From contig DDYE01000017.1 of assembly GCA_002347855.1 (NCBI GenBank), positions 271,685 through 335,684 on the forward strand: a DNA stretch of 64,000 nucleotides, read 5' to 3'. A model generated the notes under the pieces. The model ran no database searches, had not been told where the DNA came from, and saw nothing but the letters and a program-made list of their open reading frames with translations. Of the stretch, positions 8,598 through 50,206 are shown in pieces (within the stretch, counting starts at the first letter, position 1; each line of letters begins with the position of its first letter). This DNA is from Fidelibacterota bacterium UBA2242. Lineage in GTDB: Bacteria > Fidelibacterota > UBA2242. The translations under genes and the position numbers were made by a program.

Positions 8598-8981
8598 ATG
8601 GCAGGATTGTGGGATAATATTAAAAAGAATGTGAGTGAATTTGCGACTAAGGCTGCCGAAAAAGCAGGCGAAATTACTCGTGAAGCTGCTGATAAAGCAG
8701 AAGAACTTACTAAACTCGGGAAGGTGAAATTGGACATTTTCCAAATCAAACGTGACATCGAGAAAAAATTTACTGAATTGGGTGGCACAGTCTATGATTT
8801 AGTGAATGGTACCGAAGAAACTGATATTGCCAACCATTCCAAAGTGCAAGCAATCGTGAAAGATGTCCAGAATCTCGAAGTCCAGCTAAAAGAAAAAGAA
8901 GCTCTATACGAGAAAATTCGCGCCACCTCTAAGGAAGGTGCCAAACCAGAAACACCACCGCCGGCGGAAACTGATAAATAA
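8598..8981 (+). CDS. Hypothetical coiled-coil protein
   Basis: Good GAGGAGG RBS. The 127-aa product is charged, predicted helical, and has a Pro-rich tail. No family was recognised. Confidence 0.6.
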   Translation: MAGLWDNIKKNVSEFATKAAEKAGEITREAADKAEELTKLGKVKLDIFQIKRDIEKKFTELGGTVYDLVNGTEETDIANHSKVQAIVKDVQNLEVQLKEKEALYEKIRATSKEGAKPETPPPAETDK

Positions 8982-9017
8982 ACAATTACCATTACTTCTC
9001 TTCTAAGGTTTACGCTT

Positions 9018-9884: not shown

Positions 9885-9968
9885 AAAATTGTTGACAAAT
9901 TCGATTTCAGTACGTAAAATAGCATTGCAGATGGGTCAAGTGAGAAAAGGTAGAAGATTCGAAGATAG

Positions 9969-14795: not shown

Positions 14796-14878
14796 GTCCA
14801 GGGGTGCTATCCCGGCAAATTGGGACGGCTGAGAAATTACCCTTTGAACCTGATCTGGATAATACCAGCGAAGGGAGG
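14796..14878 (+). promoter_or_regulatory. TPP (THI-box) riboswitch
   Basis: AGGGGTGC (14800-14807), CTGAGA (14829-14834), ACCC, and AACCTGATCTGGATAATACCAGCGAAGGGA match the TPP aptamer core almost base for base. The GGGAGG Shine-Dalgarno (14873-14878) lies at the aptamer 3' edge, 4 nt before the ATG at 14883. Confidence 0.88.
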
Positions 14879-14882
14879 TCGT

Positions 14883-36635: not shown

Positions 36636-37923
36636 CCATTTCCGGCAATATCTCAACAATCGGGAATACCGCAAATTGGCATTTAACTTTACCAATTTTG
36701 GGGTATTTCAGGTCATTAATTATATAATTCCCTTAGTAGTCATTCCATATATTGTACGCGTCATTGGAGTTGAGAAGTTTGGTATCATAAGCTTTGCTCA
36801 AGCTATTTGCTACTATCTACTGATTGTTGTTGAGTATGGTTTTACAATAACTGGTGTCCAACTAATTGCCCAAAATCGTCATAATCAAGCCAAACAGTCT
36901 GAGATATTTTCATCGATAATTATTATTCAAATATTGCTTATGATACTTGGCTTGGCTCTCATCGGGTTAGGAGCACTCCTTTTTCAAGAGGTGCGCCAAT
37001 ATTTTTTGATTTATCTTTTTTCCTATTTGTTGATTCCAGGACAAATAATGGTCGCCCTCTGGTTTTTTATCGGGGTAGAGGAGATGCAGTATCTCAATTA
37101 TGTTAATCTCATTGCCCGCTTAAGCTATATTGCCTTAGTATTTTTATTAGTTCATCACGAAAGTGACTATCCTCGGATTCCTTTGCTTAATGGCATTTCC
37201 TATATTCTGGGAGGGATTTTTAGTCTGGGATTTATCTTTCGCAAATTTAAAATCCGTTTGCAACTGGTTGGAATAGATAAACTGTGGTTTTATTTAAAAG
37301 ACGGGTGGCATCTCTTTGTATCCAATTTTGCTATTAACTTATATCGTAACTCAAATGTAGTCCTCCTCGGTCTGGTCGCCAGTAAAGAGGTTGTCGGCAT
37401 TTATAGTGCTGGTGAGAAAGTAATAAAAGTATTTCAGTCGGTATTTACTCCAATTACACAGACTCTATTTCCATATTTCTCGCGAATTAAAACATCTCAT
37501 CCTGAACGGAGTTTACGATCTATTAAGCTCTTATTAAGAGTTATGTCGCTATTTGCAGGGACGATTACTGTTCTATTAATGCTGGGAGCCAAGCCCTTGA
37601 CAATCCTCATTCTGGGTAAAAGTTTTCTATCCGCCCAGGCAATAATTAAAATCACAGCCGCGGTAGTAACTCTGGGTGTCTTGAATTACATCCTGGGCAT
37701 TATATTTATGACCAATTACGGTCTAAAGCGTGAATTTTCACGGAGTGTTCTTTTGACGGGTGTGTTCAATCTCTTTATTTGTCTCGGACTGTCCTATTTT
37801 TGTCAAGCTATAGGCGCAGCCATAGCCTTCACGGCTGCGGAATTTTTTCTCTTTACTCTTTTAGTTTATTTTATCTTGCGTAATAAATCAAAATGGATGC
37901 AGACTGATGATTTCCAAAGTTGA
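36619..37923 (+). CDS. wzx: Wzx-type (MOP superfamily) polysaccharide flippase
   Basis: About 12 TM helices. The N-terminus ...VINYIIPLVVIPYIVRVIGVEKFGIISFAQ is typical of O-unit flippases. The TTG start is uncertain. Confidence 0.75.
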   Translation: MNLKNNHFRQYLNNREYRKLAFNFTNFGVFQVINYIIPLVVIPYIVRVIGVEKFGIISFAQAICYYLLIVVEYGFTITGVQLIAQNRHNQAKQSEIFSSIIIIQILLMILGLALIGLGALLFQEVRQYFLIYLFSYLLIPGQIMVALWFFIGVEEMQYLNYVNLIARLSYIALVFLLVHHESDYPRIPLLNGISYILGGIFSLGFIFRKFKIRLQLVGIDKLWFYLKDGWHLFVSNFAINLYRNSNVVLLGLVASKEVVGIYSAGEKVIKVFQSVFTPITQTLFPYFSRIKTSHPERSLRSIKLLLRVMSLFAGTITVLLMLGAKPLTILILGKSFLSAQAIIKITAAVVTLGVLNYILGIIFMTNYGLKREFSRSVLLTGVFNLFICLGLSYFCQAIGAAIAFTAAEFFLFTLLVYFILRNKSKWMQTDDFQS

Positions 37924-38971
37924 GCCACTCGTAACTATTATCATCTTAAACTGGAATAAATGGCAAGATACAGTCGAATGTCTCGCAAGCTTGAGCCATC
38001 TTACTTATCCTAATTATCGTATTGTGCTGGTCGATAATAATTCACTTAATGATTCTGTGACTCAGATAAAGGCTTTCTTAACGGGTCAGAGAGTGGAAGG
38101 CATTCAGACTCATTTCTCTCAATTGGTTGAAAGACCCGATATGACCAAACTGCAATTCATGATTCAAAAGATTGATAATTACCCATTCGATTATTCCTCT
38201 TTTCAAGATGACAGCGGGCAACATTTATGGTTGTTGCTTTCGGAAAACCTTGGTTTTGCGCGGGCAAATAACTTAGCAATTGCAATAGCTAGCCAGCTCT
38301 ATAACCCGGATTATTTCTTTTTGTTGAACAATGATACTGTCGTTGAACCTGATGCCGTGACGCATTTAGTGACGGCTATGACTTCCGACGCGACGATTGC
38401 CGCGGCGCAACCGGTCATTTACTATTATTCTAATCCCGTTCAGATTGCCAATGCGGGAGGCATAATTTTGCCCTGGGGACAGACACGCTATTATACCAAA
38501 ATTAGAGCCCATACCTGGCAGAAAATTACGTTCATCAATGGTTGTGCCCTTTTTTTACGTCGAGAAACTATCGAAAAGTTCGGCGCACTCACCGAGCGTT
38601 TCTTTTTTGCGGAAGAGGATTTTGAATATAGTCTACGCTTAAAACGGCAGCGTGCCAGGGCAATTTGTGTTGCTGATAGTAAGATATATCATAAAATCGG
38701 AGCATCAGAGATTGCACAAAATATTGAACGGAAAGTGGTTTTATTTGCCGTCAACCGGCTGGTTGACCTGAAACATTACTATGTGCCTATTATCTGGCGT
38801 TTCTGGGCAAGCCTTAGTTTGCTCTATTTCTGGGGTCTCTTGTTTTTTAAATATCGGGTTGGCTGGAAAAAGTCTGCTAATCTAATTTCTGAAGCCAGGC
38901 AATGGGTTCATCAAGTTTCTGAAGTTGATAAAGATACGGTTATGGCAATTCTCCGAAGGGGCGTTCAGTGA
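37907..38971 (+). CDS. Family 2 glycosyltransferase
   Basis: VTIIILNWNKWQDTVECLASL...IVLVDNNSLNDS and the DxD-type LLNNDTVV motif. Confidence 0.82.
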   Translation: MISKVEPLVTIIILNWNKWQDTVECLASLSHLTYPNYRIVLVDNNSLNDSVTQIKAFLTGQRVEGIQTHFSQLVERPDMTKLQFMIQKIDNYPFDYSSFQDDSGQHLWLLLSENLGFARANNLAIAIASQLYNPDYFFLLNNDTVVEPDAVTHLVTAMTSDATIAAAQPVIYYYSNPVQIANAGGIILPWGQTRYYTKIRAHTWQKITFINGCALFLRRETIEKFGALTERFFFAEEDFEYSLRLKRQRARAICVADSKIYHKIGASEIAQNIERKVVLFAVNRLVDLKHYYVPIIWRFWASLSLLYFWGLLFFKYRVGWKKSANLISEARQWVHQVSEVDKDTVMAILRRGVQ

Positions 38972-40248
38972 TTTTACAACTCACCAGTTTAATGTTTGCG
39001 GGAATTGTAACCTGTCTGACAGTTTTTGATAAGCGTCGCCTTAATACTATTTTAACGCCCTTCACAGTAACTGCCTGGCCCTTTGTGATAATATCTTTGT
39101 TGGTCAATTTTGTTCTGGTTTTTCTACAATTCAAGCCAATGACTCTGCGGGTACATTTTTTTATTTTAGCGAATTTGCTCATCCTCTGGCTTAGTGGTTT
39201 TGTGCTTGCCTTTTTTGTCAATGGAGGCAACCAGAGATTAGATGAGACTCCTTTGAGCGCTATTTTCAAGGTGTTTGCATCTTACGAACTTTTTCTTGTG
39301 ACAGTTAGTTGGTTAATTATTGTTGTGACTCTCTATCGGGCTTATAGCCTGCTAAGGATTTATGGTGGATTTACCTTCTTAGGTGACTATCGTTTTGAAG
39401 AATTGATGATTGTTGGTCCCGTTGCCCATCTTGTGCAAGTTGGTAAGGTCTGTTTTCTTTTGCTCTGCTTTATTTATAAGAATTCTAAGCACAAAGTGTT
39501 AATTTGGTTGACGCTGGCTGGATTGTTCATTGCTATTGCTGCTATTCAGGTGAAATACCATCTGCTCTGGTTGTTAATCATAGCGTACTTTTTCTATTAC
39601 CTTGAGAAGCCGGTAAAACAGCAGGTCAAAAATTTACTTTTAGTTATGTTTAGTGTGATAGTAATTATGAATTTGTTCTGGATTCTGCTGACCTTAGCGT
39701 GGGGGACTTTCTCCATTTCCAGTCGAGGTATCCATGAATTTTTAATTAAACAGACCATGAATTATATTACAACCGGTCCAGTAGCCTTAGACCAGTGGTT
39801 ATCGCATGGAGACTGTAAGCCAGAGTGGACGCTTTTGCTCGTATTCCTGAATTTGAAAAATGTAATTATGGGTAATCCTCTCCGGTTAAGTGGTTTAAAC
39901 TATGTCAATCTGGGTTTTATCGAGACGGGTCCAGGTTTGAGTTCTAATGTTGGTACCGCGTACGGGGTATATTATCTCATTGGTGGCTGGGTGTTTACTC
40001 TTTTTATGACAACCATAGTTTCGCTTTTTTCATACTGGATATTTTACAAAACTCGGCAGCGGAAAAATCCTTACTTAGTATTTTTTAATCTTCTGGCATT
40101 AACCTTAGGAGTTTTGACTTTTTTCGTCCAGTATTTTACTCTCCTGTCACTTTACGAAATGACAGCAATCTATATGTTCTTAATTGCCGTTTTTCAGTTC
40201 TTGAATTATATGAAAGCCCAACAATTACCGATAGAGTTAAGCCATTGA
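38968..40248 (+). CDS. Wzy-like oligosaccharide repeat-unit polymerase (polytopic membrane protein)
   Basis: 426 aa with at least 10 TM helices and one larger loop. AT-rich, and located between glycosyltransferase genes. No soluble-domain motifs were seen. Confidence 0.55.
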   Translation: MILQLTSLMFAGIVTCLTVFDKRRLNTILTPFTVTAWPFVIISLLVNFVLVFLQFKPMTLRVHFFILANLLILWLSGFVLAFFVNGGNQRLDETPLSAIFKVFASYELFLVTVSWLIIVVTLYRAYSLLRIYGGFTFLGDYRFEELMIVGPVAHLVQVGKVCFLLLCFIYKNSKHKVLIWLTLAGLFIAIAAIQVKYHLLWLLIIAYFFYYLEKPVKQQVKNLLLVMFSVIVIMNLFWILLTLAWGTFSISSRGIHEFLIKQTMNYITTGPVALDQWLSHGDCKPEWTLLLVFLNLKNVIMGNPLRLSGLNYVNLGFIETGPGLSSNVGTAYGVYYLIGGWVFTLFMTTIVSLFSYWIFYKTRQRKNPYLVFFNLLALTLGVLTFFVQYFTLLSLYEMTAIYMFLIAVFQFLNYMKAQQLPIELSH

Positions 40249-41351
40249 ACGACGCAATACAGAATCTACGAGTGTTATTAGTCGGAGGATATCCACCGCC
40301 CTATGGGGGTGTAACTGTGCATATTCAACGTCTGCAGCATTATTTGAATAGAGCTGGCGCTAATTGCCTCGTGCTAAATCAGTTCCGTAGTGAGGGGCAA
40401 CCATCTGGGAATATAATTAATCTTTCTGGTGGGAGGTTGGCGCAGTATTTTAAGATGCGGGCTTTGTTAACCAGGACGGACGCTCAAATTATCCATTTTC
40501 ACTTTTCTAAATTGGGTAATTTCTTAATCGGGGGGAGGCATTTAATTAAAGCGGCTGGTAAGGCTATATGTGTGGCAACCTGTCATTCAGGGCAATTAGC
40601 GGTAGAGTTTGCCCACCGCCATAAATTTTATCGGTTGGCAGCAATTGATCTTATTCGGGCATTTGATCACCTGATTGCCGTGAACCCTCAGCAGGTGGAA
40701 TTTTATACTAAAGTTATTGGGATTGAAGCGATACGCGTCAGTCTAATACCAACCTTCATTCTGCCAGAAAGTAGTCAGATTGAATTGCCTCAAGCGATGC
40801 TTAATAAGGTTACTGCCCTACGAAAATGTTGCCGTTGGATTTTGATGGTCAGCGGTTATTTATTGCCATATTATGGTTTTGATTTGTTTCTGGAGGCAGT
40901 TGCTAATTTAGAACGACTCTATCATGCCAAATTTGGGCTGATTTTTATATTTTATACTAAGGCTGATGAGAATTATCGCCAATTATTATTAGCAAAAATT
41001 GAAAAACATGGTTGTAGTCTAGTCTACGAGAATATTAAGCCAAATGACTTTCTGGGGTTATTACAGCAGAGCGATCTTTTTGTGCGTCCTACTCTGGCGG
41101 ATTCTTTCGGCGTATCAGTCGCGGAGGCTTTATATCTGGGAACACCAGTGGTAGCCAGCGATGTCTGTGCGCGACAAGAAGGGGCGGTGCTTTTCAGAAG
41201 TGGTGATGTGCAGGATTTAGTAGCCAAAATTCGGGCGGTAATTGAAAATTATGCAAATATCAAAGCCACACTTACCGAAATTAATCTTCCAAATAACGCT
41301 GAGCAATTGCTGGCTTTATACTACGAGCTTATTAAACAGGGGGAAAAATGA
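40245..41351 (+). CDS. GT-B fold glycosyltransferase (GT4-like)
   Basis: N-terminus VLLVGGYPPPYGGVTVH. C-terminus ...LFVRPTLADSFGVSVAEALYLGTPVVASD matches the E(x7)E region. Confidence 0.78.
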   Translation: MNDAIQNLRVLLVGGYPPPYGGVTVHIQRLQHYLNRAGANCLVLNQFRSEGQPSGNIINLSGGRLAQYFKMRALLTRTDAQIIHFHFSKLGNFLIGGRHLIKAAGKAICVATCHSGQLAVEFAHRHKFYRLAAIDLIRAFDHLIAVNPQQVEFYTKVIGIEAIRVSLIPTFILPESSQIELPQAMLNKVTALRKCCRWILMVSGYLLPYYGFDLFLEAVANLERLYHAKFGLIFIFYTKADENYRQLLLAKIEKHGCSLVYENIKPNDFLGLLQQSDLFVRPTLADSFGVSVAEALYLGTPVVASDVCARQEGAVLFRSGDVQDLVAKIRAVIENYANIKATLTEINLPNNAEQLLALYYELIKQGEK

Positions 41352-43474
41352 AGCAGATTGTGCAACATTTAAAAAATGGAAGCATAGAGCTTGCGGAAGT
41401 ACCACGACCAATAGTTACCCGTGGTAAAGTATTAATCAAGACGCAGCTTAGTCTAATTTCGGTCGGAACTGAAAGGATGTTAGTCGAATTTGGTCGCTCA
41501 GGTTGGCTTGCTAAAGCCCAACAGCAACCAGATAAGGTACGTCAGGTTTTAGATAAAATTAAAACTGATGGTCTCATTGCGACGATTGAGGCTGTTACTG
41601 CCAAATTAGATGAACCAATGCCTTTAGGCTATTGTAATGTCGGGGAAATTGTGGAGATTGGCGAAGGTGTGACAGATTTACAAATTGGTGATCGTGTCGT
41701 TTCAAATGGTCCCCACGCCGAATTTGTAACTGTTTCTCAAAACTTGTGTGTTCGTATTCCAGACAGCGTGCCCGATGAAACGGCTGTTTTTACTGTCCTT
41801 GGTTCAATTGGTTTACAGGGGATTCGACTGGCTCAACCTAGTCTCGGAGAAACATTTGTCGTGACAGGTTTAGGTTTGATTGGTCTTCTGTCGGTTCAAA
41901 TCCTCCTGGCTAATGGTTGTAAAGTTATAGGTATTGATGTAAATCCCCAGCGAGTGGCTTTAGCGCGCCGCTTTGGAGCATACGCAATCAATGTCAGTAA
42001 AGAAGATCCTGTCGCAATCTGTGCTGCTTTGACGAATGGTAAAGGGGTGGACGGCGTACTGATTACGGCAGCCACTAAAAGTAACGAGCCGATTCACCAG
42101 GCTGCTCAAATGGCTCGTAAGCGTGGCAGAATTGTATTGGTTGGTGTAACAGGATTGGAACTCAATCGGGCAGATTTTTATGAAAAGGAACTAAGTTTTC
42201 AGGTTTCTTGTTCCTATGGTCCGGGCAGATATGATGAAAATTATGAGCAAAAGGGACAGGACTATCCTGTCGGTTATGTGCGCTGGACTGAAAGGCGCAA
42301 TTTTGAAGCAATTTTGGATTTAATGGCAACTAATAAATTAGATGTTCAACCGCTTATAAGCCATGTTTATCCATTTCAGCAAGCAGGCGAGGCTTACGAT
42401 ACCATAATGCAAAAGAGAGATGCGCTCGGTGTGATATTAGAGTACAAACCAAAAGTTCAAGATGAATCTGTGCGCATCGAGGTTAAGTCGGCAATATTAA
42501 AGACTGCTGCTCCCGCGGTCAATGTTGGCGTAATTGGAGTTGGTAACTACGCCAAACTTATGTTGCTACCGGCTCTTAAAGAAACAGGTGTAAATTTGAG
42601 CAGTGTGGCTGATATTGTGCCATTAGACGCAAGTTATGCCGCTCGTAAATTTGCTTTTCAGACTGCTACCAGTGATTATCATACTATTTTAGCTGATGAA
42701 GACATCAACACGGTATTTATTACCACCCGCCACGATTTACATGCCCGCTTAGTTTGTGAATTTCTTACTGCGGGTAAGAATGTTTTTGTCGAGAAGCCGC
42801 TGGCGTTGAATAAAGAGGAGTTAAGAAAAGTCGAAGAAATCTATCTGAAAGCCGATAGCCGCTTGATGGTCGGATATAATCGGCGCTTTGCTCCCCAGGT
42901 CATCAGAATGAAAGAATTGCTGATAGACAGAAGCGAACCTATTTGTATCAATATTCTGGTTAATGCGGGATACATACCGCCTGAACATTGGGTTCATGAT
43001 CCCCTGGTTGGTGGCGGACGAATCATTGGTGAGGGGTGCCATTTTGTGGACTTGATTGCTTTTTTATGTTGTAGTAAGGTGGTACAGGTTAGCGCTATTG
43101 GAGTTAGAGGCGATTATTTGCGTGACAAGGTCAGTATTAACCTGCGACTCGCTGATGGCTCAATCGGAACTATTCAATACTTAGCCAATGGCAATAAACA
43201 ATATCCTAAGGAAACAGTACAAGTTTTCAGTTCAGGACGAATCCTGGAACTCGTGAATTTTCGCAAATTAGTTGGTTATGGCTGGAAAGGTTTTCGAAAA
43301 TTTAATTTATGGAAACAAGATAAAGGGCATAAGGCAGAAATCAAAGCCTTTATCACGGCGATTTGCACTGGACAAGTTGCACCAATATCGTTCGAGGAAA
43401 TGAAAAACACAAGCGAAGCAACTTTTGCTATCATGGAAGCCCTGGAATCAAAACAGACCGTCGAAATAAAATGA
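41348..43474 (+). CDS. Bi-domain oxidoreductase (MDR alcohol-dehydrogenase-like N-half plus Gfo/Idh/MocA C-half)
   Basis: aa 1-370: GYCNVGEIVEIGEGV and VTGLGLIGLL (Rossmann fold). aa 385-708: VGVIGVGNYAK and FVEKPLA, the Gfo/Idh/MocA signature. Confidence 0.8.
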   Translation: MKQIVQHLKNGSIELAEVPRPIVTRGKVLIKTQLSLISVGTERMLVEFGRSGWLAKAQQQPDKVRQVLDKIKTDGLIATIEAVTAKLDEPMPLGYCNVGEIVEIGEGVTDLQIGDRVVSNGPHAEFVTVSQNLCVRIPDSVPDETAVFTVLGSIGLQGIRLAQPSLGETFVVTGLGLIGLLSVQILLANGCKVIGIDVNPQRVALARRFGAYAINVSKEDPVAICAALTNGKGVDGVLITAATKSNEPIHQAAQMARKRGRIVLVGVTGLELNRADFYEKELSFQVSCSYGPGRYDENYEQKGQDYPVGYVRWTERRNFEAILDLMATNKLDVQPLISHVYPFQQAGEAYDTIMQKRDALGVILEYKPKVQDESVRIEVKSAILKTAAPAVNVGVIGVGNYAKLMLLPALKETGVNLSSVADIVPLDASYAARKFAFQTATSDYHTILADEDINTVFITTRHDLHARLVCEFLTAGKNVFVEKPLALNKEELRKVEEIYLKADSRLMVGYNRRFAPQVIRMKELLIDRSEPICINILVNAGYIPPEHWVHDPLVGGGRIIGEGCHFVDLIAFLCCSKVVQVSAIGVRGDYLRDKVSINLRLADGSIGTIQYLANGNKQYPKETVQVFSSGRILELVNFRKLVGYGWKGFRKFNLWKQDKGHKAEIKAFITAICTGQVAPISFEEMKNTSEATFAIMEALESKQTVEIK

Positions 43475-45477
43475 ATCTTAGCCTTCCATTTTATCTTCTC
43501 AAAGAGATGGGACCGAGATGGGTTTTCTATCGTGGTCTGTACTGGCTTTACCAGCGTACTAGGCTCCAGCAATTATTTTTTCCTGCACGCCAAATTAATT
43601 TTCAGCAGTACTCAAAACTACCGCTTGATTTTTCGAAGGAAGAGATAAAGTCATGTTTAAATTTCTGGCTTGGCAAGGTGGATGAACACGCTAATCTCAG
43701 GAGTTTTTATAACGATTATCCTGAAATTCAATCTCAAATTAAAAATCGCTATACTGCCCTGAAAGCCGGCCGCTTCACCTTTTTTTCAAAGTTAGAATTT
43801 GATTTGGGATTGCCACCGAATTGGTTTTTAAGCCCACAGACCTCCAAAACCAGTCAGGCGAATTGCCACTGGACAAAAATTCGTGACTTCGATGCAAGCC
43901 TTGGTGATATTAAATTCGTCTGGGAATTATCACGTTTTGCCTGGGTTTATGATCTTGTGCGATACTATGTATTGACGGAGGATGAAGAAGCAGTAGAACT
44001 GTTCTGGTACTTATTTGAAGATTGGATTACAAAGAATTTTCCGGAAAAAGGACCGCATTGGAAATGTGGTCAGGAAATTGCCATGCGCTCTTTAGCGGTT
44101 CTATTCGTACTCCAGCATACCTTTTATGCTAAAGCAACTACCCCGACAAGAATACGTCTGGCTGGGGGCTTCTTACGGTATAATGCCCAACATATTAAGC
44201 GCAACTTTTGGTATGCTAATCGCTCAATTAAAAATAATCATACGATTAGTGAAGCTGCCGGTTTATATCTCATCGGTAATTTCCTAAAGTATCTGAAGGA
44301 ATCTGCTCAATGGAGAAAAATCGGCAAGCGTACTTTAGAACGGGAAATTCAGCGTCAGGTTTATATTGACGGAACTTATTTGCAGCATTCGTTTAATTAC
44401 GAGCGTTTAGTTGTCCAGTGGCTATGTGTGTGTCTTACCGCAAATAAATGGGGTGCAGATGAATTTTCAAGAGAAATTACCCAACGGCTAAGAAGCATGG
44501 CCGAAACGCTTTATCAACTCCAGGATGAGCATAGTGGGCAACTGCCCAATTATGGTGCAAATGATGGAACGCTTTTGCAGCCGCTAACATCCTGCGACTA
44601 TTTAGATTACCGACCACAGCTGCAAGCTGCCTACTTTTTGACCACGCGACGCCGTCTATATGTACCGGGCATCTGGGACGAATTATTAATCTGGTTGCAG
44701 GGAGTGGTTCCGGAAGAAACTGCCCGTGATAAAATTCAGCGCATCACCTCTGCTTTTGAAATTGGAGGCTACTATATTCTACGATTAACTGAAGATGAAC
44801 CTCATTTTATGTTGCGGTGTGCTAATTATCATCACCGCCCTGGGCATGCTGACATGCTTCACCTGGATTTTTGGTACGGCGGAGTAAATGTCCTCACTGA
44901 CTCTGGTACCTTTTCTTACTTTCCAGCGGATGAGGCAAAAATGGGCTTTGTCGAGACTAAAGCCCATAACACCGTCTGGGTCGATGGACGCAGTCAGATG
45001 GATCACTGGGGTGCGTTTCTTTGGACAAAATGGACTAAATCCAAACTGGTGCGTTTTGTCAAAGAAACAGAGCAAATCAAATGGGAAGGCGAGGTTTATG
45101 ACCATCAAGGAATAATCCACAATCGCAGCCTAATTCTGCGAAATGGTTTATGTATTGTCCGTGATCGAATCGTCGGCAATTTTAATTTTGCTGAGATTAA
45201 TTGGAACGTTAATGCTCTCATTTTATCCCAAAATGATTATTGGCAAATTCAGATTGGCGATAGGTCGCTTTACATTCTTACTAATTATCAGTTAGAAGCC
45301 ATCCCAGGTGAAATTTCCCGCTATTATGGTCATCTGGAAAAAATCACTCGTTTGCATAGTAGACAAAAATCAAACCAAGAGAAGGTAATTTGGGTAACAT
45401 TATTAGCGTGGAGTAATGCGGAATCACCCTTAGAAATTGATAAATTAAGACGACAATATTTATTTCGTGAAAATTGA
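43471..45477 (+). CDS. Heparinase II/III-like protein (no signal peptide)
   Basis: ATGA overlap with the upstream gene. NNHTISEAAGLY, HHRPGHADMLHLDFWYGGVNVLTDSGTFSY and TKAHNTVWVDGRSQ match the Hepar_II_III C-terminal pattern. The tracked start at 43363 lies inside the upstream gene. Confidence 0.78.
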   Translation: MNLSLPFYLLKEMGPRWVFYRGLYWLYQRTRLQQLFFPARQINFQQYSKLPLDFSKEEIKSCLNFWLGKVDEHANLRSFYNDYPEIQSQIKNRYTALKAGRFTFFSKLEFDLGLPPNWFLSPQTSKTSQANCHWTKIRDFDASLGDIKFVWELSRFAWVYDLVRYYVLTEDEEAVELFWYLFEDWITKNFPEKGPHWKCGQEIAMRSLAVLFVLQHTFYAKATTPTRIRLAGGFLRYNAQHIKRNFWYANRSIKNNHTISEAAGLYLIGNFLKYLKESAQWRKIGKRTLEREIQRQVYIDGTYLQHSFNYERLVVQWLCVCLTANKWGADEFSREITQRLRSMAETLYQLQDEHSGQLPNYGANDGTLLQPLTSCDYLDYRPQLQAAYFLTTRRRLYVPGIWDELLIWLQGVVPEETARDKIQRITSAFEIGGYYILRLTEDEPHFMLRCANYHHRPGHADMLHLDFWYGGVNVLTDSGTFSYFPADEAKMGFVETKAHNTVWVDGRSQMDHWGAFLWTKWTKSKLVRFVKETEQIKWEGEVYDHQGIIHNRSLILRNGLCIVRDRIVGNFNFAEINWNVNALILSQNDYWQIQIGDRSLYILTNYQLEAIPGEISRYYGHLEKITRLHSRQKSNQEKVIWVTLLAWSNAESPLEIDKLRRQYLFREN

Positions 45478-45479
45478 TT

Positions 45480-46709
45480 ATGCGTGTTCTTTATATCCAC
45501 CAATATTTTAATACTCATCGTGAAGCCGGTGGGTCGCGCTCATATTCCTTAGCCAGAGCCCTCATAGCAAAAGGACATCAGGTTGTGATGTTAACTTCGA
45601 ATCGCAATAATCCTGACCTACCAGCGGTCTACTCCTGTCAGATTGATGGGATTGAAGTCGTATATGTTAAGAATCGCTATTCGAACAAGATGGGTTTTCT
45701 GCGGCGGATTTTATCCTTCTTACATTTTATGTTCATGTCTATTTTGGTGGCCTCACGAGTGCGCAATATTGATCTGGTTTTTGCTACTTCGACGCCCTTA
45801 ACAGTCGGTATACCAGGGATAATTTTTAAAAGGCTTTATAAGGTTCCTTTTGTCTTTGAAGTTCGTGATTTATGGCCTGAGTTAGCAATTGCCATGGGAA
45901 TAATTAAAAATCGAATAGTTATTAATGTAACCAGCTGGTTGGAAGCAAAAATTTATCAGGAATCTGACCATATTATCAGTTTAGCGCCGGGAATCACCAA
46001 GGGCATAATTGCTAAAAGCGTTCCGGCAGAAAAGGTGACTATGATTTCCAACGGCTGCGACCTGAATTTATTTAGAGCAGAGGTACACTCACAACCATCT
46101 AACTGGCAATTTCAGGAAGAAGATTTAGTTCTGGTTTATGCTGGCACTCATGGATTGGCGAATGGTTTACAATGGGTGATAGAGGTAGCCAAAGAAGCCA
46201 AACTGCGTCGCCAAATACGCATAAAATTTGTTTTGATTGGTGATGGTATGACTAAGCCTGATCTGATTAGACAAAAAGAGCAATTTGAATTAGACAATGT
46301 ATTTTTTCTCGATCCAATGCCTAAGCAACAATTAGTCGATTATTTAGCAGCAGCAGATATGGGTATGCAATTATTGGCAAATGTGCCTTCTTTTTATTAT
46401 GGTACATCACCCAATAAATTTTTTGATTATCTGGCGGCAGGAAAACCGGTTTTAAATAATTATCCCGGTTGGGTGGCAGACTTAATTCGTCAATGGCAAT
46501 GTGGGATTGTTGTCAGATCTGATGACTATGATGATTTTTTCAGGCAAATTGAGCCGTTAATTACTAATCGCCAATTATTGAAAGCGATGGGGGAGAGAGC
46601 GCGGAATTTGGCTTCTGCTCATTTTAGACGAGATGAGCTTGCTACGCGTTTTGTCCAGACTCTGGAGTGTACTTGTCGTGAATATCAGGAGAGGAGGACA
46701 GCTATTTAA
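45480..46709 (+). CDS. WbuB-like family 4 glycosyltransferase
   Basis: MRVLYIHQYFNTHREAGGSRSYSLARAL and FEVRDLWPE are typical of the WbuB/GT4 subfamily. ATG 45480 is preferred over TTG 45474. Confidence 0.8.
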   Translation: MRVLYIHQYFNTHREAGGSRSYSLARALIAKGHQVVMLTSNRNNPDLPAVYSCQIDGIEVVYVKNRYSNKMGFLRRILSFLHFMFMSILVASRVRNIDLVFATSTPLTVGIPGIIFKRLYKVPFVFEVRDLWPELAIAMGIIKNRIVINVTSWLEAKIYQESDHIISLAPGITKGIIAKSVPAEKVTMISNGCDLNLFRAEVHSQPSNWQFQEEDLVLVYAGTHGLANGLQWVIEVAKEAKLRRQIRIKFVLIGDGMTKPDLIRQKEQFELDNVFFLDPMPKQQLVDYLAAADMGMQLLANVPSFYYGTSPNKFFDYLAAGKPVLNNYPGWVADLIRQWQCGIVVRSDDYDDFFRQIEPLITNRQLLKAMGERARNLASAHFRRDELATRFVQTLECTCREYQERRTAI

Positions 46710-47374
46710 TGGCTTCCTTAAAAGACATTGTTATTGTTGGGGCTGGGGGACATGCCAAAGAAATTGCTTATTTAATCGAAGCGATCAATCTTGAAAAACC
46801 GACCTGGAATCTTTTAGGAATGATAGAACGGGATGCGCAGAACATCGGGAAACCATGCGGTAAATATAGTGTTATTGGCGATGACACCTTTTTCCAAAAG
46901 CGTTATGCTAACCTTAATGTAGTAGTCGCAATTGGGCAACCGCAGCGAGTCAAACAAATTTATACCAGTTTGCAGAATGAATATCCGGAATTGCTCTTCC
47001 CGAATTTAATATTTCCTACCGTCCAGCCTGGTTTGCGAGAGGTAGCGATGGGAATTGGTAACATCATTTGCGAAGGAAACATTTTTACGACGGATATTCA
47101 ACTTGGCTCATTTAATTGTCTTAATCGCGGGAATAATATCAGTCATGATGTTAAAATTGGGGATTTTGTGACGATAAATCCAGGAGTTAACATTTCCGGT
47201 GGGGTAGTAATTGAGTCGGAATGCCTGATTGGTACGGGCGCAACGATTTTGCAATATTTAACAATTGGGAGAGGAGCGGTCGTCGGTGCAGGGGCAGTCG
47301 TTACGAAAAATGTTTCCCCATCTACGACTGTAATTGGAGTTCCTGCTCAACCATTAAAGAGAAAAATTGTTTAA
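46709..47374 (+). CDS. NeuD/PglD/VioB-family sugar N-acetyltransferase (hexapeptide repeat)
   Basis: IVIVGAGGHAKEI forms the N-terminal Rossmann-like domain. The C-terminal left-handed beta-helix shows hexapeptide repeats (GDFVTINPGVNISGGVVIESECLIGTGA). Confidence 0.82.
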   Translation: MASLKDIVIVGAGGHAKEIAYLIEAINLEKPTWNLLGMIERDAQNIGKPCGKYSVIGDDTFFQKRYANLNVVVAIGQPQRVKQIYTSLQNEYPELLFPNLIFPTVQPGLREVAMGIGNIICEGNIFTTDIQLGSFNCLNRGNNISHDVKIGDFVTINPGVNISGGVVIESECLIGTGATILQYLTIGRGAVVGAGAVVTKNVSPSTTVIGVPAQPLKRKIV

Positions 47375-48364
47375 ATGGAGGTAGTATTGCGAGTCTTAAT
47401 TACGGGAGGTGCTGGGTATATAGGTTCAGTTTTGACCCGGCAACTTTTAGAAAAAGGATATCAAGTCCGTGTCTTGGATTGTCTGAATTATGGAGGCGAG
47501 TCAATCCTCGGTGTTTTAAGCAATCCGAATTTTGAGTTTTTACGGGGAGATATTCGCAGAAAAGCTGATGTCGCAGAAGCACTTCAGGATGTTGATGCGG
47601 TAGTGCATTTAGCGGCTATTGTGGGCGATCCGGCTTGTGCCAAACAACCACAATTAGCGCGTGAGACTAATCTTAATGCCTCACTGATGTTATATGAACT
47701 TTGCCAGAATCAATCAAGCGTGAAGCGTTTCGTTTTTGCATCCACTTGCAGTAATTATGGCAAGATGGAGGGTAGCGATTATATTGATGAGACAGCGCCG
47801 CTTAAACCGATTTCGCTTTATGCCGAATTGAAAGTAGCTTTTGAGCAGCATCTACTGAGTTCAAAAACTCGTGGCGATTTTATCCCGACCGCCTTGCGGT
47901 TTGCTACCGTTTACGGGATTTCGCCAAGGATGCGCTTTGACTTGACCGTGAATGAATTCACACGCGATGCCGCTCTGGGACGCGAGTTGGTGATTTACGG
48001 TGAGCAATTCTGGCGTCCTTATTGTCATGTAGAAGACCTGGCACGGGCGTGTGCTTTAATTCTGGAATCTCCTTGCGATAAAGTAGATCATGAGGTTTTT
48101 GGTGTCGGTGATAAATCGGAAAATTATCAGAAAAAGATGCTTGCCGAAGAAATTAAACGCATTTTACCGGAAACAAAAGTCAAGTATGTCCACAAAGATG
48201 AAGATCCGCGTGATTATCGAGTAGACTTTACCAAAATAAAAAAGCAATTAGGATTCTCAATAACCAAAACCGTTCCACAGGGAATTCGCGAAATTGTCTT
48301 TGTTATTCAGAATGGTATTTTGCACGATCCCTTCAATAAAATTTATTCAAATATCTCGGAGTAA
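47375..48364 (+). CDS. NAD-dependent sugar epimerase/dehydratase (extended SDR)
   Basis: VLITGGAGYIGS, STCSNYG, and the YxxxK motif YAELK. Confidence 0.8.
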   Translation: MEVVLRVLITGGAGYIGSVLTRQLLEKGYQVRVLDCLNYGGESILGVLSNPNFEFLRGDIRRKADVAEALQDVDAVVHLAAIVGDPACAKQPQLARETNLNASLMLYELCQNQSSVKRFVFASTCSNYGKMEGSDYIDETAPLKPISLYAELKVAFEQHLLSSKTRGDFIPTALRFATVYGISPRMRFDLTVNEFTRDAALGRELVIYGEQFWRPYCHVEDLARACALILESPCDKVDHEVFGVGDKSENYQKKMLAEEIKRILPETKVKYVHKDEDPRDYRVDFTKIKKQLGFSITKTVPQGIREIVFVIQNGILHDPFNKIYSNISE

Positions 48365-48366
48365 GT

Positions 48367-49527
48367 ATGATTCCACTTTCTGTCCCGCACATAGCTGGTA
48401 ACGAATGGCAGTATATCAAAGAATGCCTGGATACTGAATGGGTCTCTTCAGCCGGTAAATATGTCGATTTATTTGAACAACAGGTTGCTAAACTGGCCGG
48501 TTCCAAATTTGCGATCGCTTGCGTGAATGGCACTGCTGCTTTGCAAGTTGCTTTAGAAGTTGCCGGTCTAAAACCTGACGAAGAGGTAATAGTCCCAACT
48601 CTTACCTTCATCGCTTCCGTGAATGCAGTGCGTTATAACCGAGCTGAACCAATTTTTTTTGATTGCGATGACTATTACTGTCTTAATATTGATAAAATAA
48701 TCGAGTTCATTCGACAGGAAACTATTTTTAAACATGGTGCGAGTTTTAACCGTAAGACTGGTAAGCGGATAAGAGCCTTGGTAGCAGTCCACGTTTTTGG
48801 AAATGCGGTTAATCTGGAACCACTGTTGGAGCTTTGTCACGAGCGGGGCATCCTTGTAGTCGAAGATGCAGCTGAAAGTATTGGTACAGTTTATCGCGGG
48901 GGAAAGCTGGACGGCAAAGCCACTGGTGTCGTCGGTGACATTGGTTTTTATAGTTTCAATGGCAATAAAATTATCACGACTGGAGGCGGCGGGATGATTG
49001 TTACAAATAATTCCGAGTATGCCGAACGAGCCCGTTACCTGACGACTCAAGCCAAAGATGATGAGGTTCGCTATATTCACCATAACATTGGCTACAATTA
49101 TCGTTTGACCAATATCCAGGCGGCCTTAGGCGTTGCCCAACTCGAAAAATTAGGAGAGTATATCGAAAGAAAGCGCACGAATTATCAATATTTTAAACAG
49201 GCTATTGATCAAATTCCCGGTCTCCATCTGGCTGAAGTTCCACCCTATTGTGAACCCAATTATTGGTTCTATAATTTGCAAATTGATAAGGACATCTACG
49301 GGCGGGATAGAGAAGAATTATTGGCACTTTTTACCGCAGAAAAAATTCAGGTGCGACCAGTCTGGTATTTAAATCACTGGCAAAAGCCTTATGTAAAAAA
49401 TCAAACCTATAAAATCGAAAAAGCCATCCAACTATTCGAAAAAACTTTGAATATTCCCTGTTCCGTCAATTTAACCACAGAGCAACGCACTAAGGTTATT
49501 GAGGTGCTAAAAAATGGTCAACGCTAA
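48367..49527 (+). CDS. DegT/DnrJ/EryC1/StrS-family sugar aminotransferase
   Basis: ACVNGTAALQVAL, IVPTLTFIASVNA, FYSFNGNKIITTGGGGMI (PLP lysine region). Confidence 0.85.
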   Translation: MIPLSVPHIAGNEWQYIKECLDTEWVSSAGKYVDLFEQQVAKLAGSKFAIACVNGTAALQVALEVAGLKPDEEVIVPTLTFIASVNAVRYNRAEPIFFDCDDYYCLNIDKIIEFIRQETIFKHGASFNRKTGKRIRALVAVHVFGNAVNLEPLLELCHERGILVVEDAAESIGTVYRGGKLDGKATGVVGDIGFYSFNGNKIITTGGGGMIVTNNSEYAERARYLTTQAKDDEVRYIHHNIGYNYRLTNIQAALGVAQLEKLGEYIERKRTNYQYFKQAIDQIPGLHLAEVPPYCEPNYWFYNLQIDKDIYGRDREELLALFTAEKIQVRPVWYLNHWQKPYVKNQTYKIEKAIQLFEKTLNIPCSVNLTTEQRTKVIEVLKNGQR

Positions 49528-50206
49528 TCGTTATCTGCAACGGTTAATTAAATATTCCCTGGATAAACTATTATCTATACTGGGTTTATTAATCACCTCT
49601 CCAATCTTTGTTTTTGTTGCTCTCATTCTAAAACTAAAGGGGCAAGATGTTTTTTTTAAGCAAGCAAGAGTGGGAGAGGATGGCAAAGACTTTTGGGTTT
49701 TCAAGTTCACTACAATGCCCAAAGGTTCCGAAAAATTAGGTTTAATAACGACTAGCAACGACAGCAGACCATTTGCGTTTGGGAAATTTCTACGGAAGAC
49801 TAAAATCAATGAATTACCACAATTACTGAATGTTCTCAATGGCAGTATGAGTCTAGTCGGACCACGCCCACTGGTTCGTGAACAAATAGAAGAAGGACTG
49901 ACAGCTGCTGAGATTAAAGCCTTCTATCGGATGCGGCCTGGGATTACTGGCGCAGGCTCGCTCTATTTTCACCACGAAGACCGTTTATTAGCCAACGTTG
50001 CTGAACCGCATCGGTATTATCGAGAAGTGATTCTACCTCAAAAAAAATCCATCGAACAAGCCTACGCTGAGCATTGGAATCTCTGGCTTGATATAAAACT
50101 ATTGTGGTTGACGATATGGGTTGTAATTTTAGATTGGATTGGTAAAGAGGTGACCGATGTTCAATTGGATCTTTTTAAAGATATTAGGAAAGCAGATGAA
50201 AATTAG
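49514..50206 (+). CDS. Small monotopic phosphoglycosyl transferase (PglC/WecP-like sugar transferase)
   Basis: A single N-terminal re-entrant helix, then KFTTM, INELPQLLNVLNGSMSLVGPRP, RPGITG. 230 aa. Confidence 0.85.
   Translation: MVNANRYLQRLIKYSLDKLLSILGLLITSPIFVFVALILKLKGQDVFFKQARVGEDGKDFWVFKFTTMPKGSEKLGLITTSNDSRPFAFGKFLRKTKINELPQLLNVLNGSMSLVGPRPLVREQIEEGLTAAEIKAFYRMRPGITGAGSLYFHHEDRLLANVAEPHRYYREVILPQKKSIEQAYAEHWNLWLDIKLLWLTIWVVILDWIGKEVTDVQLDLFKDIRKADEN

What the first reader, a model, noticed from the sequence alone, without database searches (positions are those of the whole stretch)
41348..46709. Translationally coupled module: bi-domain oxidoreductase, signal-less heparinase II/III-like protein and WbuB-like GT
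The three genes are linked by ATGA or near-overlapping junctions. The 708-aa protein joins an MDR dehydrogenase half to a Gfo/Idh/MocA half. The next protein has the Hepar_II_III C-terminal signature but no signal peptide. It therefore cannot be a periplasmic lyase and would act on a cytoplasmic substrate, either lipid-linked or nucleotide-linked. With ugd in the same operon supplying a uronic acid, a plausible role is C5-epimerase or eliminase-type chemistry on a uronate residue before the WbuB-like GT acts. I do not know of a biochemical function assigned to this triad.
Basis: partly seen in the sequence, partly recalled or inferred. Interest (0 to 1): 0.5.

Follow-up and report, generated by a model that had tools for sequence, protein, structure and literature searches.

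The report
Predicted L-aminouronic-acid sugar synthesis and transfer module
Three overlapping genes in a surface-polysaccharide operon most likely make an unusual L-form acidic sugar and attach it to the growing repeat unit; the module is widespread, was already guessed at in Acinetobacter and mislabelled a "heparinase" in Pseudomonas, and has never been shown biochemically.

Summary
A 708-aa MDR+Gfo/Idh/MocA oxidoreductase (41348-43474), a 668-aa signal-less heparinase II/III-like protein (43471-45477) and a GT4 transferase (45480-46709) sit head-to-tail in a Wzx/Wzy polysaccharide operon. The tight junctions run through the whole operon, so they do not single out the triad. Conserved synteny does: 28 of 56 fully flanked loci from many phyla carry the triad, usually followed by bacillosamine-type genes.

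The module is not unassigned. The same block lies in the Ralstonia solanacearum EPS I operon (54/34/47% identity). The oxidoreductase is 53% identical to P. aeruginosa PA14 ZbdP, whose neighbour HepP was published as a "heparinase". Acinetobacter WeeE/WeeF (gnlAB) were postulated in 2001 to make UDP-L-GalNAcA. PA14 and RAG-1 polysaccharides contain L-GalNAcA, and Ralstonia EPS I contains GalNAcA.

Best explanation: the lyase-fold protein epimerises C5 of a UDP-HexNAc-uronate, the bi-domain enzyme inverts C3 by oxidation and reduction, and the GT4 adds the L-sugar to the lipid-linked first sugar.

No step has biochemical proof. The window has no wecB/wecC. The window's heparinase-like protein belongs to a different subfamily from HepP. 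This is a new member of a known, unproven module, of moderate interest.

The parts
41348..43474 (+). Bi-domain oxidoreductase (708 aa). The N-terminal half is a Zn-independent MDR and the C-terminal half is Gfo/Idh/MocA. It is the orthologue of PA14 ZbdP and the Ralstonia eps 'dehydrogenase'. Proposed role: net C3 epimerase by oxidation then reduction.
   Evidence: Pfam and NCBIfam. 54% identity over 98% coverage to Ralstonia RSOE_04580. 53% to PA14 ZbdP. 40-61% identity to 40 homologues across phyla. Conserved GLGLIG, GxG, EKP 482-484, NRR, H565 and D568, with Zn ligands replaced by S38 and Y95. The nearest solved relatives are sugar or inositol secondary-alcohol dehydrogenases.
43471..45477 (+). 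Signal-less heparinase II/III-like protein (668 aa) with a PL12-like fold. Proposed role: uronate C5-epimerase.
45480..46709 (+). GT4 glycosyltransferase (409 aa), WbuB/WcaI-like. Proposed to add the L-uronic sugar to the lipid-linked first sugar.
   Evidence: Pfam and NCBIfam. 47% identity over 96% coverage to the Ralstonia gene annotated 'glycosyltransferase WbuB'. Immediately downstream of the heparinase-like gene in 39/65 loci. Fused to it and to a PGT in L015.
46709..47374 (+). NeuD/PglD-family N-acetyltransferase, part of the bacillosamine-type first-sugar branch.
   Evidence: TIGR03570, 180 bits, above cut-off. The same position is kept in the Ralstonia, Pseudomonas mosselii, Thiothrix and Marinobacterium loci.
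47375..48364 (+). SDR epimerase/dehydratase (329 aa). Likely the 4,6-dehydratase of the diamino-trideoxyhexose branch.
   Evidence: Pfam Epimerase, 161 bits; weak LegB-like hit. The role is inferred.
48367..49527 (+). DegT/LegC-family aminotransferase.
   Evidence: TIGR04181, 465 bits, above cut-off.
49514..50206 (+). Small PglC-like phosphoglycosyl transferase, which initiates the repeat unit.
   Evidence: Bac_transf, 171 bits. A small PGT occurs in 31/80 related loci.
31644..32966 (+). UDP-glucose 6-dehydrogenase-like (Ugd/TuaD-like), first gene of the operon. It may or may not feed the module.
   Evidence: NCBIfam TuaD 571 bits (cut-off 700) and NDP-sugar dehydrogenase 505 bits. Only 30% identity to Ralstonia EpsD/WecC.
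32978..41351 (+). Rest of the Wzx/Wzy assembly operon: RmlB-like SDR, Wza-like exporter, GNVR protein, Wzx, GT2, Wzy and a GT4.

Best explanation
The three genes are a sugar-making-and-adding module inside a Wzx/Wzy polysaccharide operon. They are equivalent to the block found in the Ralstonia solanacearum EPS I operon. At the level of the oxidoreductase they also match zbdP of P. aeruginosa PA14 and, by inference, gnlA/weeE of Acinetobacter.

Proposed mechanism (inferred, no step demonstrated): a UDP-2-acetamido-hexuronic acid, UDP-D-ManNAcA in the characterised systems, is inverted at C5 by the heparinase-fold protein. That protein would use the Asn-His/Tyr machinery which polysaccharide lyases and dermatan-sulfate epimerase use to pull the proton next to the carboxylate, here followed by reprotonation from the other face instead of elimination. 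The bi-domain enzyme inverts C3: its Gfo/Idh/MocA half oxidises the 3-OH to a ketone and its Zn-independent MDR half reduces it from the opposite face. D-manno inverted at C3 and C5 is L-galacto, so the product is UDP-L-GalNAcA. The WbuB-like GT4 then transfers it to O3 of the undecaprenyl-PP-linked first sugar. That first sugar is a bacillosamine-type diamino-trideoxyhexose made by the downstream acetyltransferase, SDR and aminotransferase and installed by the small PGT.

The order of the two inversions is open, and so is the exact sugar made in this organism, because no wecB/wecC lies in the window.
For: (2) Cytoplasmic location: no signal peptide, lipobox or TM segment in the whole family.
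(3) Synteny across Planctomycetota, Bacillota, Bacteroidota, Acidobacteriota, Armatimonadota and Pseudomonadota: triad in 28/56 loci, GT4 directly downstream in 39/65.
(4) One 1339-aa natural fusion of heparinase-like, GT4 and PGT domains.
(5) The same block sits in the Ralstonia EPS I operon, with 54/34/47% identity and wecB/wecC present. EPS I contains GalNAc, GalNAcA and a 4-N-acylated trideoxyhexosamine (the L configuration is from my memory of Orgambide 1991).
(6) The window oxidoreductase is 53% identical to PA14 ZbdP. zbdP-hepP lie four locus tags from wbpM, and the PA14 O-antigen contains alpha-L-GalNAcA linked 1->3 to QuiNAc.
(7) WeeE/WeeF (gnlAB) were postulated for UDP-L-GalNAcA in RAG-1, whose CPS contains it. 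GnlB is heparinase-like.
(8) Uronate context: AsnB-like amidotransferases occur in 11/80 loci and in 2 of 3 proteobacterial loci; WecB-like genes in 13 and NDP-sugar dehydrogenases in 13 of 80.
(9) Both halves of the oxidoreductase keep cofactor and catalytic motifs. Its closest solved relatives oxidise secondary sugar hydroxyls. The best NCBIfam hits to the C-terminal half are inositol 2-dehydrogenase and UDP-GlcNAc 3-dehydrogenase.
Against: No enzyme of this module has been assayed on a nucleotide sugar. Recombinant PA14 HepP gave a clearing zone on a heparin/protamine plate and is cited as a functional heparinase.

The window's heparinase-like protein is not a close relative of HepP/GnlB. 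There is no BLAST hit to HepP, and HepP scores only 63 bits against the family profile, less than true heparinase III does. Transfer of function from PA14 and Acinetobacter therefore rests on the oxidoreductase partner and on context.

No wecB or wecC occurs in the 64-kb window. Only 24 of 80 loci have either gene within 10 kb, and none of three complete proteobacterial loci does. The source of the uronate is usually not local.

Conserved residues cannot separate an epimerase from a lyase. The His that aligns with heparinase III His424 is Pro457 here. The fusion to a membrane PGT may mean the enzyme works on lipid-linked intermediates rather than UDP-sugars.
Confidence: 0.55

Rival explanations
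1. Same module and same product class, but the epimerisations happen after transfer. The GT4 would add D-ManNAcA (or another D-uronate) to the undecaprenyl-PP-linked first sugar, and the heparinase-like protein, with or without the oxidoreductase, would then remodel the lipid-linked disaccharide at the membrane.
For: A natural heparinase-like/GT4/PGT fusion exists in L015. The family has a conserved basic amphipathic N-terminus. The heparinase-like gene is more tightly linked to the GT4 than to the oxidoreductase. There is a precedent: V. cholerae VpsJ is proposed to epimerise ManNAcA to L-GulNAcA on the lipid-linked disaccharide.
Against: Gfo/Idh/MocA sugar 3-dehydrogenases known to me (WbpB/WlbA) act on UDP-sugars. 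The GT4 resembles transferases annotated as WbuB, whose canonical donor is an L-sugar, UDP-L-FucNAc (donor from my own knowledge). Two successive redox and epimerase steps on a lipid-linked substrate are less economical.
Confidence: 0.25
2. GDP-mannose-3,5-epimerase-like division of labour. The Gfo/Idh/MocA half oxidises C4, the heparinase-fold protein epimerises both C5 and C3 through enolates, and the MDR half reduces C4 back.
For: It yields the same L-galacto product from a D-manno precursor. It explains why two separate nicotinamide domains are fused.
Against: 4-keto-hexuronates decarboxylate readily, as in UDP-xylose synthase and ArnA chemistry (my own knowledge). The closest characterised relatives of the C-terminal half are 2- or 3-dehydrogenases. 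Some loci have the heparinase-like gene and GT4 without the oxidoreductase, and A. baumannii KL215 has gnlB alone. That argues the heparinase-like protein can act without a keto intermediate.
Confidence: 0.12
3. The protein is a genuine glycosaminoglycan or polysaccharide lyase (a 'heparinase', as published for PA14 HepP). It would either degrade host heparin/heparan sulfate or trim the cell's own polymer.
For: PL12 fold with conserved Asn-His and Tyr. rHepP cleared a heparin/protamine plate.
Against: There is no export signal in any member examined (the HepP authors also found none). The gene sits in biosynthetic operons of free-living soil, sediment and marine bacteria with no GAG-utilisation genes nearby. 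It is overlapped with or fused to a glycosyltransferase. In a Wzy pathway the polymer exists only outside the cytoplasm. The plate assay used 28 ug of protein with no product analysis. The residue aligned with heparinase III His424 is Pro in this subfamily. HepP belongs to a different subfamily from the window protein.
Confidence: 0.07
4. Dehydratase/reductase route to a 4-deoxy sugar. The lyase-fold protein eliminates the 4-OH of a UDP-uronate to give a 4,5-ene, and the Zn-independent MDR half, acting like an enoyl reductase, saturates it.
For: The MDR half lacks Zn ligands, like the enoyl and quinone reductases of that superfamily. The lyase fold is built for beta-elimination.
Against: The PA14 polymer linked to this module keeps a 4-O-substituted L-GalNAcA. 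This route leaves no role for the Gfo/Idh/MocA half.
Confidence: 0.04

Closest known systems
Ralstonia solanacearum EPS I (eps) operon genes RSOE_04580 / 04575 / 04570 (OE1-1 megaplasmid): 'dehydrogenase', 'heparinase', 'glycosyltransferase WbuB'
   Same: Same three genes in the same order with 4-nt overlaps. They are followed by a small PGT, a PglD-like acetyltransferase and an aminotransferase. Identities to the window are 54%, 34% and 47%. The heparinase-like subfamily is the same (invariant residues shared).
   Different: The Ralstonia operon also carries epsC (wecB) and epsD (wecC); the window does not. The Ralstonia heparinase-like protein is about 55 residues shorter at the N-terminus. 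These Ralstonia ORFs are themselves uncharacterised.
P. aeruginosa PA14 zbdP-hepP (PA14_23420/23430)
   Same: ZbdP has the same MDR+Gfo/Idh/MocA architecture and is 53% identical to the window protein and 68% to the Ralstonia one. It is followed 8 bp later by a signal-less Hepar_II_III protein. The pair lies in the O-antigen region, with wbpM at PA14_23470. The O-antigen contains L-GalNAcA.
   Different: HepP (549 aa) is a divergent subfamily. It gives no BLAST hit to the window protein and scores 63 bits against the family profile. It keeps a His where the window family has Pro457. It was published as a heparinase virulence factor with no mention of LPS.
Acinetobacter WeeE/WeeF (A. venetianus RAG-1) = gnlA/gnlB (A. 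baumannii KL126, 207-209, 219, 228, 236)
   Same: [quoted passage not shown] GnlB is structurally heparinase-like.
   Different: The assignment rests on structure-gene correlation only. From the HepP alignment, the Acinetobacter proteins belong to the HepP subfamily. That GnlA is the bi-domain enzyme is my inference.
PL12 heparinase III (P. heparinus HepC 4MMH; B. thetaiotaomicron BT4657 5JMD; 4FNV)
   Same: Best sequence and fold match: an (alpha/alpha) toroid plus a beta-sandwich, with the Asn-His and Tyr motifs.
   Different: Those enzymes are secreted catabolic lyases. The window protein has no signal, lies in a biosynthetic operon, shares 15-19% identity, and has Pro at the position aligned with His424.
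Human dermatan-sulfate epimerase 1 (6HZN)
   Different: It acts on a polymer in the Golgi lumen and shares about 9-13% identity. Homology is at superfamily level only.
VpsJ (V. cholerae) and Agl32/AglQ (haloarchaea) uronate epimerases
   Same: Proposed C5 (or C4) epimerisation of a uronate during assembly of a lipid-linked glycan. VpsJ is proposed to convert ManNAcA to L-GulNAcA.
   Different: They have an unrelated fold, similar to N-acylglucosamine or cellobiose 2-epimerases.
FnlA/FnlB/FnlC + WbuB route to L-FucNAc
   Same: The same logic: 3,5-inversion plus 2-epimerisation of a UDP-D-HexNAc gives an L-galacto sugar that a WbuB-type GT4 adds to the first lipid-linked sugar. L-GalNAcA is the 6-carboxy analogue of L-FucNAc (pathway as listed in PMC7685785). 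A divergent WecB/FnlC-like 2-epimerase sits between the oxidoreductase and the heparinase-like gene in Bacteroidota loci.
   Different: The enzymes are SDR-family and work through 4,6-dehydration. There is no homology to the two enzymes here.

Membership tests
PL12 heparinase III-type polysaccharide lyase | Two-domain fold: an (alpha/alpha) toroid plus a C-terminal beta-sandwich | tested here: met
PL12 heparinase III-type polysaccharide lyase | Carboxylate-neutralising Asn (with adjacent His) and catalytic Tyr | tested here: met
   N256/H257 and Y310 are invariant in 20-22 sequences. They align with HepC chain N216/H217 and Y270, which are N240/H241 and Y294 in full-length numbering (residue roles from memory).
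PL12 heparinase III-type polysaccharide lyase | Beta-sandwich catalytic His (HepC His424) | tested here: not met
   The HMM alignment places the nearly invariant Pro457 at that column. PA14 HepP keeps a His there.
PL12 heparinase III-type polysaccharide lyase | Export signal and a catabolic (GAG or alginate utilisation) gene context | tested here: not met
   No signal peptide, lipobox or TM segment. The protein is embedded in Wzx/Wzy biosynthetic operons in the window and in related loci.
PL12 heparinase III-type polysaccharide lyase | Beta-eliminative cleavage activity | not testable with these tools
   The only relevant data are a qualitative plate assay on the distant PA14 HepP.
L-GalNAcA module (gnlA-gnlB / weeE-weeF / zbdP-hepP / Ralstonia eps ORFs) | An MDR+Gfo/Idh/MocA bi-domain oxidoreductase orthologous to ZbdP | tested here: met
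   53% identity over 96% coverage to PA14 ZbdP. 54% to the Ralstonia protein.
L-GalNAcA module (gnlA-gnlB / weeE-weeF / zbdP-hepP / Ralstonia eps ORFs) | An adjacent signal-less Hepar_II_III-like protein | tested here: met
   4-nt overlap. It is in the same subfamily as the Ralstonia protein (34% identity, shared invariant residues). It is in a different subfamily from HepP/GnlB.
L-GalNAcA module (gnlA-gnlB / weeE-weeF / zbdP-hepP / Ralstonia eps ORFs) | A cognate GT4 immediately downstream, followed by genes for a 4-amino-trideoxyhexose first sugar and a PGT | tested here: met
   Window genes 45480-50206. The same order is found in Ralstonia, P. mosselii, Thiothrix and Marinobacterium.
L-GalNAcA module (gnlA-gnlB / weeE-weeF / zbdP-hepP / Ralstonia eps ORFs) | A local supply of UDP-ManNAcA (wecB/mnaA plus wecC/mnaB) | tested here: not met
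   No WecB homologue occurs in the 64-kb window. The only dehydrogenase is Ugd/TuaD-like. These genes are also absent from most related loci, so their absence may not be disqualifying.
L-GalNAcA module (gnlA-gnlB / weeE-weeF / zbdP-hepP / Ralstonia eps ORFs) | The polysaccharide product contains L-GalNAcA | not testable with these tools
   The source organism and its glycan are unknown (one search returned no names).
Lyase-fold uronate C5-epimerases (DS-epimerase type) | Shared fold with a His/Tyr/His-type acid-base set | tested here: inconclusive
WbuB-type L-sugar GT4 transferases | GT-B GT4 architecture and similarity to annotated WbuB/WcaI proteins | tested here: met
   GT4 domains. WcaI-family hit of 110 bits, below the 276-bit cut-off. 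47% identity to the Ralstonia protein annotated WbuB. Donor specificity was not tested.

The most novel reading that the evidence does not exclude
A large, phylogenetically broad branch of the heparinase II/III (PL12-like) superfamily would not be lyases at all. They would be cytoplasmic C5-epimerases of UDP- or lipid-linked 2-acetamido-uronic acids, a bacterial counterpart of dermatan-sulfate epimerase. They would work with a fused oxidise-then-reduce C3 epimerase to give the first complete route to UDP-L-GalNAcA. As a corollary, the P. aeruginosa 'heparinase virulence factor' HepP and its partner ZbdP would be O-antigen sugar-biosynthesis enzymes, and their mutant phenotypes would be LPS phenotypes.
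Probability: 0.5. Interest if true: 0.65.

Novelty: new member of a known kind. Interest (0 to 1): 0.45.

Why it matters
L-GalNAcA and related L-aminouronic acids occur in the P. aeruginosa O10/O19 O-antigen, the Ralstonia wilt-causing EPS I, Acinetobacter capsules and emulsan. No biosynthetic route has been demonstrated for any of them.

If the lyase-fold protein is the C5-epimerase and the bi-domain enzyme the C3-epimerase, three things follow. A gap in nucleotide-sugar biochemistry closes. Thousands of database entries named "heparinase II/III family", "alginate lyase family" and "zinc-binding dehydrogenase" can be corrected. A virulence claim that is still being cited for P. aeruginosa gets reinterpreted.

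For this window specifically, the finding adds one more member of the module, from an uncultured and probably FCB-group bacterium. That is useful mainly as comparative evidence.

Tried and rejected
- Literature searches combining heparinase with O-antigen, gene cluster, WbuB, capsule or Gfo/Idh/MocA found nothing relevant. The slash in "II/III" cannot be searched.
- The iduronic-acid/C5-epimerase search led to archaeal Agl32, which has an unrelated fold.
- The E. coli O-antigen review lists a predicted C5-epimerase "Gae" for O112ab without detail. I could not test whether it is heparinase-like, because the E. coli collection has no protein-search mode.
- The AFDB50 fold library was unavailable.
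- The exact-sequence cluster look-up gave no organism names.
- The promoter/terminator scan showed no enrichment over shuffles and was uninformative.
- A PLoS One paper I expected to state the L configuration of the Ralstonia GalNAcA did not contain it, so that point rests on my memory of Orgambide 1991.
- BLAST of PA14 HepP against the window gave no hit. This forced the conclusion that HepP/GnlB and the window protein are different subfamilies.
- I considered and rejected a periplasmic lyase role (no signal peptide).
- I considered and rejected a 4-deoxy-sugar route, because the PA14 polymer retains O4.
- I considered the idea that the bi-domain enzyme makes the C6 carboxylate. It is unnecessary in Ralstonia, which has wecC, and it would leave C3 uninverted.

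Full report
**1. What is in the window**

Positions 31.6-54 kb hold one plus-strand Wzx/Wzy polysaccharide operon. The genes, in order:
- ugd (31644-32966)
- an RmlB-like SDR
- a Wza-like exporter
- a GNVR protein
- Wzx
- a GT2
- Wzy
- a GT4
- the bi-domain oxidoreductase (41348-43474)
- the heparinase II/III-like protein (43471-45477)
- a second GT4 (45480-46709)
- a NeuD/PglD-type acetyltransferase
- an SDR
- a LegC/DegT-type aminotransferase
- a small PglC-like phosphoglycosyl transferase (PGT)
- a 332-aa ORF
- a WecA-WcaJ fusion
- then serS

The true start of the heparinase-like gene is ATG 43471, giving 668 aa, which agrees with public gene calls. Overlaps of -4, -1, 0 or +2 nt run through almost the entire operon. 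Coupling is real but does not by itself define a three-gene module.

**2. The heparinase-like protein**

N256/H257 and Y310 are invariant. They align with the Asn-His and Tyr of heparinase III (the catalytic roles are from my memory of the HepC literature). The column of HepC His424 holds Pro457 in this family, and a different invariant His (H464) follows.

No member has a signal peptide, lipobox or TM segment. Instead there is a conserved basic, aromatic-rich N-terminus.

**3. The oxidoreductase**

The N-terminal half is an MDR domain that has lost the zinc ligands (S38 and Y95 in place of Cys and His) but keeps GLGLIG. The C-terminal half is a Gfo/Idh/MocA domain with GxG, EKP, NRR and the GxxxH/D motif.

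It is very well conserved, at 40-61% identity over the full length across phyla. Its nearest solved or curated relatives oxidise secondary sugar or inositol hydroxyls; NCBIfam hits include UDP-GlcNAc 3-dehydrogenase.

**4. Comparative genomics**

A genome scan returned 80 loci with relatives of the heparinase-like protein, from Planctomycetota, Bacillota, Bacteroidota, Acidobacteriota, Chloroflexota, Armatimonadota and others.

With adequate flanks:
- the bi-domain gene is within two genes upstream in 34/67 loci;
- the GT4 is directly downstream in 39/65 and within two genes in 47/65;
- the full triad is present in 28/56.

Downstream genes are typically a small PGT, a PglD-like acetyltransferase and an aminotransferase (31, 25 and 31 of 80 loci), often with a PglF-like dehydratase. 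Accessory genes point to acetamido-uronic acid chemistry:
- AsnB-like amidotransferases in 11 loci;
- WecB-like 2-epimerases in 13, including a divergent one wedged between the oxidoreductase and the heparinase-like gene in Bacteroidota;
- NDP-sugar dehydrogenases in 13.

One Acidobacteriaceae contig encodes a single 1339-aa protein that fuses the heparinase-like, GT4 and PGT domains.

Three complete proteobacterial genomes (Pseudomonas mosselii, Thiothrix, Marinobacterium) show the block [AsnB]-oxidoreductase-heparinase-like-GT4-PGT-PglD-aminotransferase-PglF.

**5. Links to polysaccharides of known structure**

A tblastn search against plasmids hit 132 Ralstonia megaplasmids. In strain OE1-1 the hit lies in the EPS I operon, in this order: epsA, P, B, epsC (wecB), epsD (wecC), epsE, epsF, a transferase, an acyltransferase, then 'dehydrogenase', 'heparinase', 'glycosyltransferase WbuB', a sugar transferase, an acetyltransferase and an aminotransferase. 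Identities to the window triad are 54%, 34% and 47%. EPS I is a trimer of GalNAc, GalNAcA and a 4-N-(3-hydroxybutanoyl) trideoxyhexosamine (PMC12819619). I recall from Orgambide 1991 that the uronic acid is L; I could not confirm this in the held library.

In P. aeruginosa PA14, zbdP (MDR+Gfo/Idh/MocA, 78 kDa) and hepP (Hepar_II_III, no signal) form an operon 8 bp apart (PMC5732420). They are PA14_23420 and PA14_23430, and wbpM is PA14_23470. The PA14 O-antigen is -4)-alpha-L-GalNAcA-(1-3)-alpha-D-QuiNAc-(1-3)-alpha-L-Rha-(1- (PMC2997053).

Using the sequences printed in that paper's supplement, ZbdP is 53% identical to the window oxidoreductase and 68% to the Ralstonia one. HepP gives no BLAST hit to the window protein and scores only 63 bits against the family profile. 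[quoted passage not shown] They were renamed gnlA/gnlB in A. baumannii (PMC9676051). A 2026 preprint notes that GnlB is heparinase-like and questions its role.

**6. Mechanism**

L-galactose is the 3,5-epimer of D-mannose. The Ralstonia operon encodes WecB and WecC, so UDP-D-ManNAcA is the logical precursor there. For RAG-1 and PA14 I recall the same genes but did not verify them.

A lyase-fold enzyme that removes the C5 proton next to the carboxylate but reprotonates rather than eliminating gives the C5 epimer, which is L-gulo. This is what DS-epimerase does in a related fold.

A fused dehydrogenase and ketoreductase gives the C3 epimer, which is L-galacto. A WbuB-type GT4, whose canonical donor is the 6-deoxy analogue UDP-L-FucNAc, then adds it to O3 of the first lipid-linked sugar. 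This matches the L-GalNAcA-(1-3)-QuiNAc linkage in PA14.

Loci that have the heparinase-like gene and the GT4 but no oxidoreductase (gnlB alone in KL215) would be expected to stop at the C5 epimer.

All of these steps are inference. Nothing has been assayed.

**7. Weak points**
- The window has no wecB or wecC, and its dehydrogenase is Ugd-like.
- Most related loci also lack a local uronate source.
- The sugar made in this organism is therefore uncertain.
- The heparinase-like protein may act on lipid-linked rather than UDP-linked substrate. The PGT fusion and the VpsJ precedent point that way.
- rHepP cleared a heparin/protamine plate, and the Pseudomonas literature still treats it as a heparinase. 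That assay is qualitative and the paper never mentions LPS. The protein has no export signal. The gene context across free-living bacteria argues against a catabolic lyase.

**8. Verdict**

This is a new member of a widespread module that has been recognised but not biochemically proven. Interest is moderate. Most of it comes from the unresolved UDP-L-GalNAcA pathway and the likely mis-annotation of HepP, rather than from anything unique to this window.

Noticed in passing
L015:9941-13960 (Acidobacteriaceae MAG PMWW01000178.1): A single 1339-aa ORF fuses Hepar_II_III_N/C (158-669), a GT4 (745-1125) and a Bac_transf phosphoglycosyl transferase (1149-1324). This is a Rosetta-stone link between the three activities. 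It is a single example from a MAG.
   Followed up: partly
window 51394-53979 (+): An 861-aa protein fuses a WecA/MraY-type polyprenyl-phosphate HexNAc-1-P transferase (residues 21-324) to a full WcaJ-type PGT (406-855). That puts two initiating transferases in one polypeptide, next to an operon that already has its own small PGT.
   Followed up: no
window 50230-51228 (+): A 332-aa ORF at the end of the operon has only marginal hits: GH32 N-terminal domain (E 1.5e-4) and beta-1,2-mannobiose phosphorylase (E 4.6e-4). It is possibly a beta-propeller glycan-modifying enzyme.
   Followed up: no
window 29360-31483 (+): A 707-aa ORF immediately upstream of the polysaccharide operon has no Pfam or NCBIfam match.
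   Followed up: no
L054, L062, L074, L075, L080, L051, L045 (about 8870-9990 in each locus): In Bacteroidota and related loci a divergent WecB-family 2-epimerase (300-325 bits on TIGR00236, against 520 for Ralstonia EpsC) is inserted between the oxidoreductase and the heparinase-like gene. This is reminiscent of FnlC acting last in the L-FucNAc pathway.
   Followed up: partly
L022:1668-9719 and L042:1795-9723 (Pirellulales): Here the heparinase-like gene follows a protein of about 2650 aa that contains an MDR-like segment, instead of the usual bi-domain oxidoreductase. It may be a PKS- or NRPS-like context.
   Followed up: no
L085, L087 (Pseudomonas mosselii, Marinobacterium) and 11 of the 80 loci: An AsnB-like glutamine amidotransferase sits directly upstream of the bi-domain oxidoreductase. 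This suggests the uronic acid is amidated to a uronamide in those glycans.
   Followed up: partly
PA14 HepP/ZbdP sequences from the supplement of PMC5732420: HepP and its enterobacterial, Vibrio and Acinetobacter relatives are further from the window/Ralstonia subfamily than genuine heparinase III is (63 vs 115-136 bits). Both subfamilies nevertheless sit next to orthologous oxidoreductases, an apparent displacement by a distant paralogue.
   Followed up: partly
window 14820-17399 (+): A TonB-dependent receptor with a CarboxypepD_reg-like N-terminal domain suggests the window comes from a Bacteroidota or FCB-group organism. The closest relatives of the module are in a Neomarinimicrobiota MAG (L004, 61% and 46% identity).
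   Followed up: no
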